A DNA stretch of 64,000 nucleotides, taken from Perna viridis. Its lineage: Eukaryota. Position numbers: made by a program. The DNA lies in assembly GCA_037379345.1 (NCBI GenBank), contig CM074519.1:33940103-34004102 (forward strand). The letters are read 5' to 3'. This document shows positions 30,001 to 63,500 of this stretch, in pieces (within the stretch, counting starts at the first letter, position 1; each line of letters begins with the position of its first letter).

Positions 30001-33000
30001 TAGTTATTTATTTTTTTTTTTTTATATTTTTGTTTCCTTTTTATCAATATTTCTTAAGTTATCAAATATTTTAATTTCCTATTGTACATAATAAAAAAGA
30101 AAAGCAAACCAGTGGATACATCCAGCTTGCACTTGATAATCAGATGTGTTTATAGGGTTATGGTGTGATACATCCAGATTGCACTGGATAATCAGATGTG
30201 TTTATCGGGTTATGGTATACAATTTATCTCCTGGTTAAATTATCATCATATAAACAAACCAGTCTCTATTGATGTATAGTTGACTATGGTCATTTATAAC
30301 AGTTTGCCTGATTACTATGTGTTTGCCATGATCATATTATTTTCAGTGACATATTAAATATTCAAGTCTTACGTGTAATTATTTGTAAGTGTGTATTAGT
30401 TTGTCCCTAGATTCCATCAAAATCTAATATCAAGTAGTTCCATGTTTCAGGTATATAACAAAATTCATGGGATAAATCAAGGATTTGTATAGTAGACTAC
30501 TACTATACATGTATTAAGTATGCTGACATGTTTGAGCTTGTTCAAATATAGTATGAAACTATATTCAGTGCACAGTGGCTGATTCATGGTGGGGTTCTTG
30601 GAACTGGAACCCTCTTGTTGGAAACATTTCATTATTACCTTGACAAAAAATGTCAAAAAATCTGGAAGCACCATTTTCATAAGAAGTATGTTCAGAAAAT
30701 ATTAGAATCAGCACCAAAAGTGTGTTTCATTGCTGTTGATGCATGTGTTGCACTAAAATTGTAGATGAAAATAAAACCAAATTAGAAAATTTAGCCAAAT
30801 TGTATTAAAATAACTTATTTCATGAGACAATTTTATGTACAAAATATAGAGTGCATTTGTCAAAATGTTTGATATTTATACAAAAATAGCCTTCCGTACC
30901 ATCACTACTCCTGTCAAAAAATCTTCTTGTTCTTTGCTTGTGCTCTATATTTTTGGATAAAAAACTACTCCTAATCCTCTCATTTTTGTGAAAATTCTTT
31001 GAAAACTGTGTAGAAGTAGAGTTTTGTGCCCTCCTTGTGACTAAATTATGACACAACAGCTTTTATTTTCTCGTATATTAGTATTCATCTAGTATTTTAG
31101 CTTTAAAATAGGCAGATAGAAAATTTCAAATAGTAAGTTGAAACTTTGTCAAAGTAGTAAGCCTGAACTTAGTGTTGATGAATTTACCCCTTTTATGATC
31201 CATACTATGAATATGCCAACTGTCAGCATACATGACCTTTTCTAACCATTTTATTCTTGTACATGTATTTATGTTGTCTATGCTAGAAGGAACTTTTTGG
31301 TAACCAATATAAAATGTAAATAAAATGTAATACCACTAACAACAATATCCATTTCTTTAATACAATTATCAATAAAAAATAACAGTAAAATATCCTACAA
31401 AGCACTTGACATCAGCAATATCAATTCATTAAGCTGTGGTACAAAGAACAATAGTTGTGTAGAAATGTAATCAGTGTGTACAGGTATTCCTTAGGTAAAA
31501 ATATTGCACAAATGTTTCATATAGCAACACAGAGAGAATTCAATCATATCATTAATGCAACTTTCAAAGAATTTTCAGATGAAAAAAAAAATGTGAAAAA
31601 GCATGAATTTAGTTGCAATTATGGAACTAAATTAAAACAAACAAAATGTCATGTGAAACACAAAGTCTCAATAAATAGGTATTCTCATACTAAAGCAGTC
31701 AATTTGATATTTGATGAAAATAAATGTATAAAAAGGGGTTATCAATCTTAAATTTAACATTGAATTATGATCATTTACATGTAGTATTCAACCCAATTAT
31801 TATTACAAAGTTCGGTACTAAATGATAATCATAGTACTAGAAAGATTTAAAAAGAAAGTAAAATGTGGTATGATGGTAGAAGCTGTAACAATCATTACTA
31901 TCAGTTATGTGTGCTTATTATGCTGTCTTTTTATAGCAGTTTGAAATAAAGTGGTACCATTTCCATTGTAAATTAGTGACTAAAACAGCTCAAAGTTTAC
32001 CATAACTAGCAGCTATTCAAATGTAAAAAGCAGTGTCCATTAGAACACATAGGTGTTCTGTGATGATAAAGTAGGATACATTGGTAAAATGTGGGGCAGA
32101 TTTCTACCTAGAGAGCTACTTGAATCACTCTGAAGCATAGCTATATTTATATTGAAATAAGTATTACTTTATTTCAAATTGCTAGAGAGCATACAGTTTA
32201 CATTTTAAAATTGACATGTGATAGATTTTGCAATAATTAGATCATAACATCAACAATGAGAAAGAAGCTTGAGAAAAAATATTTTACCTAAAAATAGAAT
32301 TTTTATGGACTGTCAACTAAACTCATATTTTAAGTCCAGTAGGAAATATCTCTGCCTTTTATACATGCTACTTAGGTTTCAGTTGTCATTCACTGCCCAA
32401 AATACCAACATGAGAATCTCATTATGATACTACATGTACTGTCAAATATTAATTTATCATATGATTATCATAAGTGGCACATTTGGCATCTAATTCATAT
32501 AACATAATATTGCTAACGAGGGCAGAATCTTCCCCTAACTAGTATCACAGATTTAACAATGTAACAATAATAGTGTATTATTAACAAAGTGTTTTAAGTA
32601 ACTTTTGAATATCTGGTCTAACGTTAACTCCATGGAATTTCCATTCCAAGGCACTGAAATCAGCCACTTCTATTAATTCTTTCTGGTAATCTTTATGGTC
32701 TTCTGTTTCCTTAGTGCTGAAATAGAATGAGTCAAAATTATTGCTTAAGTATACCAATGGAATTACACCTATAAATGGTCATTTGTTGTTTACATGCTAG
32801 TGACATAAAAGTATGTGTTTTTGCACTAATTAGTGGTAATTTTGAATTTGAAGCATAGTCATATAATTTTCAATTCTTGGCATTTTTAAGGTGGATCTGT
32901 ACTAAGAGTTATATTTAAAGTGTTGTTTCTTTCTTGACAGATCACTGCTAAGGTTGTTTTATTCACACTTGAAGATTTGTTTGTAATTATTGAATAATAA

Positions 33001-60500: not shown

Positions 60501-63500
60501 CTCGTTTTCCCAAGCATATTGTATACATCTTCAATAAAAGATAATAATCTAATAAAAATTTATCTTTTATTGAAAACAAACAGTTTTCCCCGTTTTAGAT
60601 GTACGAGGGTTGGGAACAGTTTATTACAGATTGGGAGACACGGGAAAGGGTGGGATCTCAAAATATTTATATGTATATGTACATGTAAACAAAAAGTCAT
60701 GTATATATAGCGTATGGGCTGCCCACATGTCTTATATATTCAATTCGTATTTATCCATATCAAATTCGCTTACATTCATGTATGTTATTGACAATACATA
60801 AATTTTAAGAAACATGTTTACAGGTTCAACTCGATCTATGAATATTTTATGGTAAAAATTTGACCTAGTCCATTTTTGTTGTGATATCCCGTGTACTCAA
60901 CTAGAATATAATCATACAATTACTACAAACCCTATACCTTTGTGTCTGTCGACAACCTGGAAACTTGGTAAATGTTGTAAACCCTCCATACCAATCTATG
61001 TAACTACAGTTATCCCCTCCTGTGTCAATCGGTATGTTTTGATGATAAGAGATGCATGCATGTCATAAATTATAAAATGAAAAAAAAAAAACGCATCCGC
61101 ATGATTTTAACTGCTTCAAATTTTCTTCATACTGGTCAAAATACAAAAAGGTTTCTATGCACATAGCTTGTTCATTGATATTAATAATCAAAATGATGAT
61201 CATTATATCATAACACGAGGACTTTATCTCGAATAATCTGCTCCATCGTGCTGCAGTTCACTGTTTAAAATTAACTTACTCAATAACTGAAGTCATATCT
61301 CCATGCAAGTTTCATTACAATTTGCATAATAATACATAAAGAATTGTTTAAAGCTGGCGGCTGAGTAGAGCAAATCAAGAATTGGAAAAGTCTTCACATG
61401 CTGAAATGCGATCGTCTTTGCTGTGACTTGCCGGACTTTTTTTACAAAATTATGGCAATGTGCAAATCCCGACGAGATGCATCAAATCTTCAACATTTTA
61501 AGAGTCGCTAGTAGGAAAGTGCTAATACCATGAAAGTCATCTGTCGAACGAGGTACGGAGAATGAAAATATACTAATGGTGAAAAATAATTAAAATAGAA
61601 ATATCTTATGGTCTACAATGTTGAGAATAGAATAATGTAAAGGATAAGGAGTTCCTTTAGCAATAAAAACATGTTGGTCTTCTTATGTTGAAACTGATAA
61701 CCAGTAAAAACATTATTCAAAATAAATAGAATGATATATAAACCAAACTTACATATGTTGGGGCTGTTCTTGGGCGATGGTAGTTTATATACCGTTTGGG
61801 TTGTTTCATTGTATCTATTTGCTCCTCTGTATAGGTCGACGACACCTTCGAATAATTCGACATCGACGAAACCGGGCGAGAATGAAGTGAACATGGTTCT
61901 TGATCACACGCTGTCTGAGGTCGGTCGTGCAACAGAATATCATGCATGTGGTTATAGTCGAAGCATCGGGAATGTCTATCGAAATAACGGTAGTCCGGGG
62001 CAGGGCTAGCCGGATGAAGGTTGATATTCTGTCGTCGACTGGCGTCCTCATATAATTTGTTCACGAGTGTAAAGCTCGATCTCATCTTAGCAACAGATCT
62101 GTGTCGCTCAGCGGCCGACCCCGCACTTCGAATCCTCGGCTGAGTCGGAACCCGAGGGGATTGCGAGTCGGTCGATAGGTATGATCGTGAACTCTTGCTG
62201 CTCCATGGTCTTTCTTGGGATTTGGTGTTGAATCGTGGCGGTGCCGTTCCTGGTCTGGTAGTCCGTGCTTTCCGAACGTGTCTTTCCAAAGGCGACGGTG
62301 GTTTCAGTCGAACCTCAGCATATGTATCCGTTTTTTCGCTAGGGAGCAATGCAAATGAGTCATCTTGAGGTAAAACCTCTGTACATTTTCTACTCTCATT
62401 TGCAAATAATTTATGTTTATATCCGTCAGCAATCCATGCTAGTCCTTCGTGGTAGTCTTCAAACACCATTTTGACTTTTCACTGATAAGACAAGAACTAT
62501 TTTCTCATAATTTTATTCGTCGGCACACAAACTTTCGATTAAATCCGTTTCTGAAGTCAATTACACTAAAACAAGACACACCTAGCGTTTCATGTCACTT
62601 TGTACACAGAAACCATGTGTATCACAAACTAGAATTTAACAATATGCGTGGTCCGTACAAGGTAATCAAAATATATTCCCCAGTCAATGGTTTTAATGGG
62701 TTTTAAAATGTATCAATCGAAATACGATCCACTAAATATTCCGTCACAAACATCCATTTGAACGGGAGCAATGGTGTAGAAATTTTCATCTATATCAGAT
62801 AAGTTATTTACAAAGATACATAACACAACAAAACTGTAGTCAATTAGGCGTTCACATCACAATGGCAAAAAATCCGTATCAATATATTAGTTCCATTTCG
62901 GAATGGAATCTTGGCATTAGATCTACAACTTTGTTTACTGATACGTCCAACGTTAGGGGTATGGGTAGATTTCCAATCATAAATGCACAAGTGGATTATC
63001 GAACGCAATCAGAAGATAATCCCAATATTAGACAAACTTTAATCTCCTTAAGTCAGATTTTACCAGGTATCCAAACAAAATTACTCGATATCGGAATTTT
63101 ATATTTTAATTCATTTCAATTTAAACACTATTGATTCATATCAAGATTTAGAGTTAACTAGAACCTTGGCATCCCGCTTTCTGGAACATACAAAAAATGT
63201 CAAATTTGAACCTTAAATTACGAGATTACAAGCAATCTGAAGACTTTTGATCCAAAAAACAAATATTTTTTTCCAAGTTTATCACAATCAGTCTGAGTAA
63301 ATAGGACGAGATCAATAAAAGTAATTATGTTAAATCATACCTCTCAGGTAAAAATAAAGAGAGAGAAGTTCTTGGTTACAATATCGATCAGAAAAAGACT
63401 TAAAGAAAACAATTTCTATAAGATTTAATTTCATATTTTCGTATATTTAAAAGAAACATGTAAAGGCGTAGAAAGCTGATACCTAATAATAATATGAATT

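What the first reader, a model, noticed from the sequence alone, without database searches (positions are those of the whole stretch)
32581..62469. Hidden 14-exon, ~716-aa gene of unknown family spanning 30 kb
Seen: 14 exons with canonical splice sites and consistent phases give one open frame, although only two are obvious in the ORF track. Architecture: basic Ser/Arg/Pro-rich N-terminus, acidic small exons, Pro/Lys/Glu linker and a ~165-aa globular C-terminus. I cannot assign it to a named gene. Inference: its CpG-normal body suggests tissue-restricted expression, and its motifs suggest a cilia/flagella-associated protein. This is the best candidate for an undescribed gene in the window.
Basis: partly seen in the sequence, partly recalled or inferred. 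Interest (0 to 1): 0.7.

Follow-up and report, generated by a model that had tools for sequence, protein, structure and literature searches.

The report
Real mussel gene, uncharacterised EF-hand family
The 30-kb stretch holds a real 14-exon mussel gene that other bivalve genomes already list as an uncharacterised protein; it belongs to an unnamed animal-wide family with an EF-hand-type end domain, and nothing found here ties it to cilia.

Summary
Exon by exon, the window is colinear with annotated 691-770-aa "uncharacterized" proteins of four Mytilus species (78-80% identity in exon 1) and with oyster, scallop, clam, gastropod and nemertean proteins. So the gene is real but not undescribed. 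No Pfam family fits. A family profile finds 461 relatives, from sponge and ctenophore to a fish; none of the 24 that named an organism has a functional name. The C-terminal ~165 aa is a compact domain built around one EF-hand pair. In this mussel both calcium loops lack the canonical ligands. Exon 1 is predicted disordered. Only the 5' 27 kb has normal CpG content; the last five exons lie in a CpG-poor zone shared with a convergent HECT ligase gene. The cilia idea has no support. The joined protein was not built or searched.

The parts
61753..62469 (-). Exon 1 (first coding exon, 239 codons, phase 0 at its end). It is Ser/Arg/Pro-rich and predicted disordered. It carries conserved motifs: AWIADGY near the N-terminus, and a His/Cys cluster, PDYRYFDRHSRC..H.H..RPQTAC.
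   Evidence: ATG at 62469 and donor GTAAGT at 61752. 78-80% identical to Mytilus proteins, E 1e-121. Non-mytilid profile E 3.6e-73. AlphaFold2 mean pLDDT 51, pTM 0.14. Invariant W12, G16, H166, C169, H174 and C188 in 18 sequences.
57426..57461 (-). Exon 2, a 36-nt micro-exon (RSDLKSFQRRNY).
   Evidence: Acceptor TTTCAG and donor GTAAGT. Matches the Mytilus segment GSEGNFQRRGY and TRSDANLQRRNN of P0015. In Mytilus both alternative first exons splice onto this segment.
55854..56026 (-). Exon 3 (173 nt), with the conserved RPRFCNIV..QLH motif.
   Evidence: tblastn 80-83% identity to Mytilus proteins. Non-mytilid profile E 6e-13. Splice sites.
52793..52834 (-). Exon 4 (42 nt, SIPEHPDNKQDDL), acidic micro-exon.
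   Evidence: tblastn hits at E 0.014-0.28, colinear. AG/GTAAGT and split codons AGT and TCG. This segment is skipped in some M. edulis isoforms.
51993..52019 (-). Candidate 27-nt cassette exon (TIPEDNEF). It is frame-preserving and is not counted among the 14.
   Evidence: Matches TIPEDSEF of the optional Mytilus segment, and is flanked by AG and GTAAGT. Inferred; no RNA evidence.
48937..49025 (-). Exon 6 in my numbering (89 nt, KGAGTGLDGKPGTPTSINEDLDRMDLNNM).
   Evidence: tblastn 87% identity, E 1e-11. Splice sites.
47776..47838 (-). Exon 7, short form (63 nt). An alternative downstream donor at 47721 extends it to 47722 (+54 nt, SKSGKPVHRLSIDIKIST).
   Evidence: Both forms exist among M. edulis isoforms: the 18-aa segment is absent in 4 of the 16 compared, and the whole exon in 9 of 16. 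Donor GTAAGT for the short form, GTATAC for the long form.
45299..45342 (-). Exon 8 (44 nt, MLDDDDDIKKKNKD).
   Evidence: Acceptor CTGAAG and donor GTAAGT, split codon AGA. Corresponds to the Mytilus segment LQDDEDDLLKKK.
41772..42064 (-). Exon 9 (293 nt), Pro/Lys/Glu-rich linker.
   Evidence: tblastn E 1e-27. Non-mytilid profile E 3e-7. Pro 24%, Lys 11%, Glu 11%.
35167..35308 (-). Exon 10 (142 nt), Lys/Glu/Pro-rich.
   Evidence: tblastn E 1e-14 to 8e-17. Non-mytilid profile E 1e-4.
34705..34791 (-). Exon 11 (87 nt, TLFNDTLTEHLKKFELMVSDMTTQEEPPR).
   Evidence: tblastn E 1e-9. TTTCAG / GTAGGT.
34342..34438 (-). Exon 12 (97 nt), start of the conserved C-terminal domain (GRLALSQQSSRFTLPIDMKELE).
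   Evidence: Profiles: E 5e-14 (non-mytilid full length) and 1e-8 (domain-only).
33863..33981 (-). Exon 13 (119 nt), with the entering helix and most of EF-hand loop 1 (loop V-G-S-G-T-K-P-M-P-Y-K, then E from exon 14).
   Evidence: Profiles E 1e-9 and 2e-7. Loop read.
33156..33319 (-). Exon 14 (164 nt), with the exit helix of EF-hand 1, the whole of degenerate EF-hand 2, and the AALAERLLYP helix.
   Evidence: Profiles E 6e-17 and 3e-12. 87% identical to M. edulis.
32581..32716 (-). Exon 15 in my numbering (the 14th exon, 136 nt including stop TAA 32583-32581), with the C-terminal helix-loop-helix IEVADFSALEWKFHGVNVRPDIQKLLKTLC.
   Evidence: Profiles E 6e-19 and 1e-12. 96% identical to M. edulis.
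32150..32580 (-). Likely 3' UTR. The first AATAAA lies 407 nt after the stop, at 32173.
   Evidence: Motif scan. Inferred only.

Best explanation
This is an intact protein-coding gene of a mytilid-like bivalve. It is the orthologue of genes annotated 'uncharacterized protein' in other bivalves (for example Crassostrea gigas LOC105331026 and Mytilus californianus LOC127712647).

It belongs to an unnamed family found across animals, with two defining parts. The first is an N-terminal disordered region holding short conserved motifs (PWLADGY and a His/Cys cluster). The second is a C-terminal domain of about 165 aa that always ends the protein. Between them lies a long, low-complexity, heavily alternatively spliced linker made of acidic micro-exons and Pro/Lys/Glu-rich exons.

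The C-terminal domain is a compact helical module built around one EF-hand pair, with extra conserved elements on both sides.

Shown: the gene model, the orthology, the breadth of the family, the EF-hand pair, and the predicted disorder of exon 1.

Inferred: in cnidarian, echinoderm and fish relatives, loop 1 is a canonical calcium site (DKDRDG..E type), so the ancestral protein was probably a calcium-responsive adaptor. In this mussel loop 1 reads V-G-S-G-T-K-P-M-P-Y-K-E, and loop 2 has Leu at position 12, the invariant Glu ligand of the calmodulin loop. The domain therefore most likely works as a calcium-independent protein-binding module at the end of a flexible scaffold, whose spacing and charge are tuned by splicing. 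I put about 0.4 on that last mechanistic step.
For: Gene model. 14 exons, 13 GT..AG introns, consistent phases, no internal stop. The window is colinear with three full-length mytilid proteins and with a profile lacking mytilids.

Orthology. Exon 1 finds 36 proteins at E <= 0.01 among 692 candidates, all bivalve, with 78-80% identity to the Mytilus species proteins and to one unnamed record (P0015) and 37-50% to other bivalves. The C-terminal region of P0012 finds 185 at E <= 0.01 among 1382 candidates, including Haliotis and the nemertean Tubulanus.

Breadth. Profile A1 finds 461 representatives at E <= 1e-3, 239 at <= 1e-10 and 72 at <= 1e-30. Of 30 looked up, 24 name an organism: sponge, ctenophore, cnidarians, flatworms, rotifer, annelid, gastropods, hemipterans, a beetle, echinoderms, a hemichordate, amphioxus, tunicates and the fish Amia. 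All are 'uncharacterized', 'hypothetical', 'EF-hand domain-containing' or named after their composition.

Placement of the two parts. In 18 named proteins the domain lies at or within about a dozen residues of the C-terminus (E 1e-37 to 5e-69). The exon-1-type region is significant in the nemertean, gastropods, hemichordate, urchin and crinoid (1e-32 to 4e-6). It is weak in Ciona, Nematostella and Clavelina (0.003-0.04). It is not found in seven of the eight others at E <= 1; the insect Laodelphax appears only at E 0.6.

EF-hand pair. Domain profile against PDB sequences: calmodulin, ALG-2, CaBP1 and centrin at E 2e-10 to 8e-8 over profile positions 55-123. Pfam EF-hand_7 is found in 5 of 17 domain-only members, best E 1.1e-5. 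The AlphaFold2 model of the annelid member has pLDDT 85 and pTM 0.79. All top Foldseek PDB matches are EF-hand proteins, aligned over about 75 residues at 2.2-2.7 A.

Loops. See the alignment and the exon peptides.

Disorder. Exon 1 model: pLDDT 51, pTM 0.14.

Splicing. The 16 M. edulis isoforms compared with P0012 differ by optional segments that map to window exons 3/4 to 7.
Against: - There is no RNA evidence from this species, so exon use, the true 5' end and the isoforms rest on homology.
- Foldseek found no PDB match at E <= 0.001 (best 0.19), so the domain as a whole has no solved counterpart.
- Pfam EF-hand models match none of the window's exons or the mytilid proteins, and 12 of 17 domain-only members also fail EF-hand_7.
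- Loss of calcium binding is read from loop residues only. Non-canonical EF-hands can still bind calcium or magnesium.
- No partner, localisation or expression datum exists in the texts I could search. Searches for 18 gene identifiers found 0 papers.
- Only the best 150 of the 461 relatives were listed, and only 30 were looked up, so the family's taxonomic limits are not established.
Confidence: 0.85

Rival explanations
1. The protein is associated with cilia or flagella: an axonemal or sperm-tail EF-hand protein.
For: EF-hand proteins are common in axonemes, and Foldseek hits include calmodulin chains from central-pair and doublet structures (7n6g, 9ijj, 9e5c, 9y6s). Every animal group seen to hold the gene makes motile cilia or flagellated sperm. 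The Atlas gave a weak lead to a cluster in which 25% of members carry DUF5580 (score 0.87-0.89).
Against: The axonemal hits are ordinary calmodulin and score no better than myosin light chains or troponin C (E 0.2-1). DUF5580 matched nothing in the six Pfam searches that returned results. All 24 organism-named relatives are animals, with no ciliated protist or alga, unlike core axonemal proteins. No motif specific to cilia proteins was identified.
Confidence: 0.12
2. These are two transcription units: a 5' gene (exons 1-9) and a separate compact 3' gene (exons 10-15) encoding only the EF-hand domain.
For: Exons 10-15 are packed into 2.7 kb with 266-543-nt introns, after a 6.5-kb intron. The CpG regime switches at about 35 kb, between exons 10 and 11. 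Domain-only proteins of 202-271 aa are annotated in Amia, the chiton Liolophura and Saccostrea echinata isoform X2, which starts at an internal Met.
Against: Full-length models joining both parts exist in every bivalve found, and in the nemertean, gastropods, hemichordate, echinoderms, tunicates and Nematostella. Splice phases across the exon 9/10 junction match (split codon AAA). A short internal-promoter isoform can coexist with the long gene.
Confidence: 0.05
3. The C-terminal domain is still a working calcium (or magnesium) sensor in mussels, through non-canonical loops.
For: Position 12 of loop 1 keeps Glu. Other molluscs keep a near-canonical loop, for example R-D-K-T-G-V-I-P-F-K-D in Haliotis. 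The whole domain is under strong constraint, at 82-96% identity to Mytilus in exons 12-15.
Against: Loop 1 of the window has Val, Ser and Thr at positions 1, 3 and 5, and Lys instead of Gly at position 6. Loop 2 has Leu at position 12. No Pfam EF-hand model matches the mytilid sequences.
Confidence: 0.2
4. The exons are a decaying pseudogene or a chance alignment of ORFs.
For: None beyond the lack of RNA data.
Against: All exons are open and all 13 introns have GT..AG. The chance expectation of the exon-1 ORF is 2e-5. Exon-wise E-values go down to 3.6e-73. A public ORF, P0137, differs at 1 of 250 residues.
Confidence: 0.02

Closest known systems
Annotated bivalve orthologues: Mytilus spp. 'uncharacterized protein' (e.g. 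M. californianus LOC127712647, M. galloprovincialis LOC143075823) and Crassostrea gigas LOC105331026 (UniProt 'EF-hand domain-containing protein', e.g. A0A8W8MU83)
   Same: The N-terminal exon matches (78-80% identity to Mytilus, 50% to oyster), as do the order of segments, the C-terminal domain and the overall length (691-826 aa). They also share a many-isoform pattern, with isoform numbers up to X38 in M. edulis and X47 in C. gigas.
   Different: The window's species is none of the annotated Mytilus species (only 78-80% identity). The Mytilus alternative first coding exon (MESILK..., present in 7 of the 16 M. edulis isoforms compared) has no match in the window. The optional segment YDDEGSDVFEQA was not found.
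Calmodulin-type EF-hand pair (calmodulin, ALG-2/PDCD6, CaBP1, centrin)
   Same: A helix-loop-helix pair of about 70 residues is recognised by profile-to-sequence search (E 2e-10 to 8e-8) and by fold (about 75 residues at 2.2-2.7 A). Loop 1 is canonical in cnidarian, echinoderm and fish family members.
   Different: There is only one pair, embedded in a 165-aa domain. About 45 conserved residues lie before it (GRLALSQQSSRFELPMD...) and a conserved helix-loop-helix after it (E.ADF..L.WK.HG). The whole domain has no PDB counterpart at E <= 0.001. Loop 2 is degenerate in all 17 aligned relatives, and loop 1 is degenerate in mussels.
DUF5580 / C1orf87-type EF-hand proteins of ciliated cells. The link between DUF5580 and C1orf87 and ciliated cells is recalled from memory, not from any call.
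   Same: The general layout of a long N-terminal region followed by a C-terminal EF-hand-like domain. There was also a weak language-model lead.
   Different: No Pfam DUF5580 match at E <= 0.1 in any exon, orthologue or distant member scanned. It is not filed here.

Membership tests
Orthologous group of bivalve 'uncharacterized protein' genes (C. gigas LOC105331026-like) | N-terminal exon with the AW(I/L)ADGY motif and the DRHSRC..H.H His/Cys cluster | tested here: met
   Exon 1 scores E 1e-121 to 1e-26 against 36 bivalve proteins. The invariant residues are shared.
Orthologous group of bivalve 'uncharacterized protein' genes (C. gigas LOC105331026-like) | C-terminal ~165-aa domain ending the protein, colinear with the N-terminal exon on one strand | tested here: met
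   Exons 12-15 score E 1e-9 to 6e-19 and are colinear with profile positions 583-754. The stop follows directly.
Orthologous group of bivalve 'uncharacterized protein' genes (C. gigas LOC105331026-like) | One transcript joins both ends | not testable with these tools
   No RNA data are available. The join is inferred from phases and from full-length models in other species.
EF-hand superfamily (EF-hand pair) | Sequence similarity of the family to known EF-hand pairs | tested here: met
   Domain profile A2 against PDB sequences gives calmodulin, ALG-2 and CaBP1 at E 2e-10 to 8e-8. Pfam EF-hand_7 is found in 5 of 17 members. It matches none of the window exons or mytilid proteins on their own.
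EF-hand superfamily (EF-hand pair) | Paired helix-loop-helix fold | tested here: inconclusive
   The model is confident (pLDDT 85). All the listed top-50 Foldseek PDB hits except one (4wpx_A, TREX2 CID domain complex) are EF-hand-containing proteins, aligned over about 75 residues, but the best E is 0.19 and none reaches 0.001. The model is of an annelid orthologue, not of the window's protein.
EF-hand superfamily (EF-hand pair) | Canonical 12-residue calcium loop (Asp at positions 1, 3, 5; Gly at 6; Glu at 12) | tested here: not met
   Window loop 1 is V-G-S-G-T-K-P-M-P-Y-K-E, and loop 2 has Leu at position 12. The feature is met in Nematostella, Porites, Amia and Diadema orthologues.
Cilia/flagella-associated proteins | Match to a cilia-linked family or domain | tested here: not met
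   No such Pfam family was found. DUF5580 appeared only as a weak Atlas lead.
Cilia/flagella-associated proteins | Presence in cilia or sperm proteomes, or ciliary localisation | not testable with these tools
   18 gene identifiers were found in 0 main texts.
Penta-EF-hand proteins (ALG-2, sorcin, calpain domain IV) | Five EF-hands with dimerisation through the fifth | not tested
   Only a 60-residue stretch aligns to ALG-2. The family has one clear pair plus one C-terminal helix-loop-helix. It is not filed here.

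The most novel reading that the evidence does not exclude
The gene represents an ancient, still unnamed animal gene family, present from sponge and ctenophore to a ray-finned fish. The family is defined by its own ~165-aa C-terminal domain (an EF-hand pair flanked by the RFELPMD segment and the E.ADF..L.WK.G helix-loop-helix), for which there is no Pfam model, no solved structure and no paper. It would have started as a calcium sensor. The calcium site was then lost independently in several lineages, including mussels, and no member from a land vertebrate turned up among the relatives whose organism I could read.
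Probability: 0.5. Interest if true: 0.5.

Novelty: new member of a known kind. Interest (0 to 1): 0.33.

Why it matters
For this genome the result is a clean, homology-backed model of a gene that ORF tracks hide, with alternative exons flagged.

More broadly, the family is a well-conserved animal gene with no known function. It has a strongly constrained C-terminal domain, 82-96% identical between mytilids and recognisable in sponges. It also shows dozens of annotated isoforms in bivalves and a calcium site that is canonical in some phyla and lost in others. That makes it a tractable case for asking how an EF-hand module changes role.

It is not a surprise to a specialist. Many such conserved unknown genes exist, and gene models for this one are already public.

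Tried and rejected
- Pfam on eight exon ORFs found nothing below E 0.1. On eight full-length orthologues nothing reached its cut-off. On ten distant members it gave only two unrelated marginal hits, CBM77 and UBX.
- phmmer of P0012 against PDB sequences gave only a chance hit at E 0.79.
- The Atlas look-alike searches returned unnamed clusters and generic EF-hand clusters.
- Rfam over the whole window gave 0 matches.
- Ten ORFs of about 100 aa or more elsewhere in the window had no Pfam family.
- Folding exon 1 to look for a zinc-binding fold around the His/Cys cluster gave a low-confidence, mostly coil model, so no fold search was run on it.
- A test for self-association of the C-terminal domain (two copies) gave no verdict: score 0.10 against a mark of 0.32. 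It says nothing either way.
- Searches for the Mytilus optional segment YDDEGSDVFEQA and for the Mytilus alternative first exon found nothing in the window.
- Literature searches for 18 orthologue identifiers returned 0 papers.
- Not done: the joined 14-exon protein was not assembled, searched or folded. The prokaryotic genome collection was not scanned because it is irrelevant here. Supplementary tables of proteome papers could not be seen.

Full report
**What the window is.** The 64-kb window is AT-rich (28-38% GC), has no N, and shows two CpG regimes. Its proteins are closest to those of mussels. It is bivalve DNA, not human.

**Checking the observation.** The gene lies on the minus strand.
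- A 253-codon open frame (61717-62478) holds an ATG at 62469. The expected number of such frames by chance in this window is 2e-5.
- I searched its 239-aa exon part alone. It found 36 proteins at E <= 0.01 among 692 candidates, all from bivalves. Identity is 78-80% to Mytilus coruscus, M. edulis and M. galloprovincialis proteins of 691-770 aa, about 50% to oysters, 44-48% to scallops and a pearl oyster, and 37-41% to clams.
- I mapped three of these full-length proteins back onto the window with tblastn. This gave 12 colinear matches from 62469 down to 32584.
- Reading the flanks fixed the boundaries. There are 14 exons, every one of the 13 introns runs GT..AG, phases agree at every junction, and no exon has an internal stop. 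The total is 2202 nt, or 733 codons plus TAA at 32583-32581.
- A profile built from ten non-mytilid species hits the window's open frames in the same order: E1 3.6e-73, E3 6e-13, E9 3e-7, E10 1e-4, E12 5e-14, E13 1e-9, E14 6e-17, E15 6e-19. Two more are weak (4.1 and 0.76), and four micro-exons get no hit.

I left out the joined step: the spliced protein was never assembled, searched or folded. Public orthologues served as full-length stand-ins.

**Anatomy.**
- Exon 1 is Ser/Arg/Pro-rich with net charge +11. Exons 4, 6, 7 and 8 are acidic micro-exons. Exons 9-10 are Pro/Lys/Glu-rich. Exons 12-15 encode the conserved end.
- Introns are 1.1-6.5 kb in the 5' part but only 266-543 nt among exons 10-15.
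- Sixteen M. edulis isoforms compared with the longest one differ by optional blocks that map to window exons 3/4 to 7. The window has the matching alternative donor in exon 7 (+54 nt) and a candidate 27-nt cassette at 52019-51993.
- Seven of those 16 isoforms replace exon 1 with a different first coding exon that also splices onto the exon-2 segment. That exon has no match in the window.
- A good acceptor-like site sits 12 nt before the ATG.
- The locus may therefore extend beyond position 64000, and 30 kb is a lower bound.

**What family it is.**
- Pfam gives nothing on the exons or on full-length orthologues.
- The C-terminal region alone also finds Haliotis and a nemertean.
- A 12-species profile, scored against 1.84 billion representatives, finds 461 proteins at E <= 1e-3, 239 at <= 1e-10 and 72 at <= 1e-30.
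- I could look up 30 of them, and 24 name an organism. These are a sponge (Sycon), a ctenophore (Bolinopsis), cnidarians (Nematostella, Porites), flatworms, a rotifer, an annelid, gastropods, three hemipterans and a beetle, a crinoid and an urchin, a hemichordate, amphioxus, two tunicates and the fish Amia. A further word-indexed search added a chiton, more gastropods and seven trematodes.
- Every name is 'uncharacterized', 'hypothetical', 'EF-hand domain-containing' or driven by composition ('piccolo-like', 'serine/arginine repetitive matrix protein 1-like').
- In 18 named proteins the domain lies at or within about a dozen residues of the C-terminus (E 1e-37 to 5e-69). The exon-1-type region is significant in the nemertean, gastropods, hemichordate, urchin and crinoid. 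It is weak in Ciona, Nematostella and Clavelina. It is undetected in amphioxus, the ctenophore, the beetle, the rotifer, Amia, the sponge and Macrostomum, and only marginal (E 0.6) in the insect Laodelphax.
- Eighteen orthologue identifiers occur in none of the 8.4 million full texts searched. Supplementary tables, where proteome lists would sit, were closed.

**The C-terminal domain.**
- A profile of 17 domain-only members matches calmodulin, ALG-2, CaBP1 and centrin at E 2e-10 to 8e-8 over positions 55-123.
- Pfam EF-hand_7 matches 5 of the 17.
- AlphaFold2 on the annelid member gives a confident compact model (pLDDT 85, pTM 0.79).
- Foldseek against the PDB returns almost only EF-hand proteins, aligned over about 75 residues at 2.2-2.7 A. 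The best E is 0.19 and none reaches 0.001.
- So the domain is one EF-hand pair inside a larger module that has no solved counterpart.
- Loop 1 is canonical in Nematostella, Porites, Amia and Diadema, nearly so in Glandiceps, and degenerate in the other aligned relatives, including the sponge, ctenophore, amphioxus, Ciona, the insect, the rotifer and the molluscs.
- In the window loop 1 reads V-G-S-G-T-K-P-M-P-Y-K-E. Loop 2 has Leu at position 12 in the window and is degenerate in all 17 aligned relatives.

**The N-terminal exon.** With an 18-sequence alignment it folds to pLDDT 51 and pTM 0.14, which means predicted disorder. Yet W12, G16, H166, C169, H174 and C188 are invariant, and H176 nearly so. 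These look like short linear motifs, possibly a metal site. This was not tested.

**How it most likely works.**
- Shown: an intact gene for a long, flexible, alternatively spliced protein with a conserved EF-hand-based end domain.
- Inferred: it acts as a scaffold or adaptor. The end domain binds a partner, the N-terminal motifs bind others, and the acidic micro-exons tune the linker.
- Also inferred: the ancestral form sensed calcium through loop 1. The mussel form probably does not; I put about 0.4 on that.
- The cilia reading has no positive evidence. There is no cilia family match, axonemal structure hits are plain calmodulin, and no non-animal relative was seen. It is not excluded.

**Surroundings.**
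- A HECT-domain ubiquitin ligase gene runs on the plus strand. Six of ten open frames tested match HECT, colinear from 17544 to its end at 26909 (E 3e-4 to 8e-17). It is therefore convergent with the gene under study.
- CpG o/e is 0.21 for 1-32580, 0.09-0.37 across 32-35 kb, and 0.89 for 36001-62469.
- The CpG-poor zone thus covers exons 11-15, and the switch falls between exons 10 and 11.
- In oysters, low CpG o/e tracks methylation and broad expression, and unmethylated genes are more tissue-specific (PMC3840415, passages read).
- Either methylation spreads from the HECT gene, or the 3' cluster is also transcribed on its own. One oyster has an annotated short isoform.

**Verdict.** It is already modelled in related genomes, and it belongs to an unnamed, animal-wide EF-hand-domain family of unknown function.

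Noticed in passing
window 14841-26909 (+): Convergent neighbour: a HECT-domain E3 ubiquitin ligase gene. Six of ten open frames tested match Pfam HECT, colinear from profile positions 49 to 306, ending at 26909. The ORF at 14841-15023 looks HECT-like by eye but gave no Pfam hit. The 5' part of the gene was not mapped.
   Followed up: partly
window ~35000 (between exon 10, 35308-35167, and exon 11, 34791-34705): Sharp CpG boundary inside the gene. CpG o/e is 0.86-1.24 at 35-37 kb, 0.37 at 34-35 kb, and 0.09-0.19 at 32-34 kb. The CpG-poor zone is continuous with the zone over the HECT gene. This could be spreading methylation or an internal transcription unit.
   Followed up: partly
beyond window end (>64000) or absent: In Mytilus species many isoforms (7 of the 16 M. 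edulis isoforms compared) start with a different first coding exon of about 265 aa (MESILK...), which splices onto the exon-2 segment. tblastn finds no trace of it in the window. An acceptor-like site lies 12 nt upstream of the ATG at 62469.
   Followed up: partly
window 34231-34341: A 34-nt tandem repeat (3.3 copies, 97% matches) starts exactly at the donor of exon 12. The donor-like GTAGGT is therefore present four times, and an acceptor-like TTTTTCAG twice (a third copy reads TTTGTCAG), within 110 nt.
   Followed up: no
window 41016-41184, 50262-50430, 51504-51659, 55557-55721 (inverted), 3487-3651 (inverted): An interspersed element of about 170 nt, with five copies at 80-92% identity plus a fragment. 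Four copies lie in introns of the gene. Its spurious open frames (…SVFHVWSLSLDY…) inflate the ORF track.
   Followed up: partly
window 22570-24255 and 20208-21135: Two large tandem arrays lie between HECT exons: 29 nt x 58 copies (96% matches), which explains the GC-skew spike of 0.46, and 71 nt x 13 copies.
   Followed up: no
exon 1 and P0137: A public ORF (P0137) differs from the window's 250-residue open frame at one residue. It reads through the donor into the intron, as do the other N-terminal-only database entries. All of these run on only from the conserved TAP.T|GT junction (into the intron) or stop there, so this intron position appears to be conserved in the 18 sequences aligned. I did not look up its source.
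   Followed up: partly
exon 1 (residues ~158-188) and exon 3: A conserved His/Cys cluster (DRHSRC-x4-H-x-H ... C, then F-C ... L-H in exon 3) sits inside a region predicted to be disordered. It may be a metal-binding motif.
   Followed up: partly
window 58238-58461: A short tandem array of units of 25-93 nt in intron 1.
   Followed up: no
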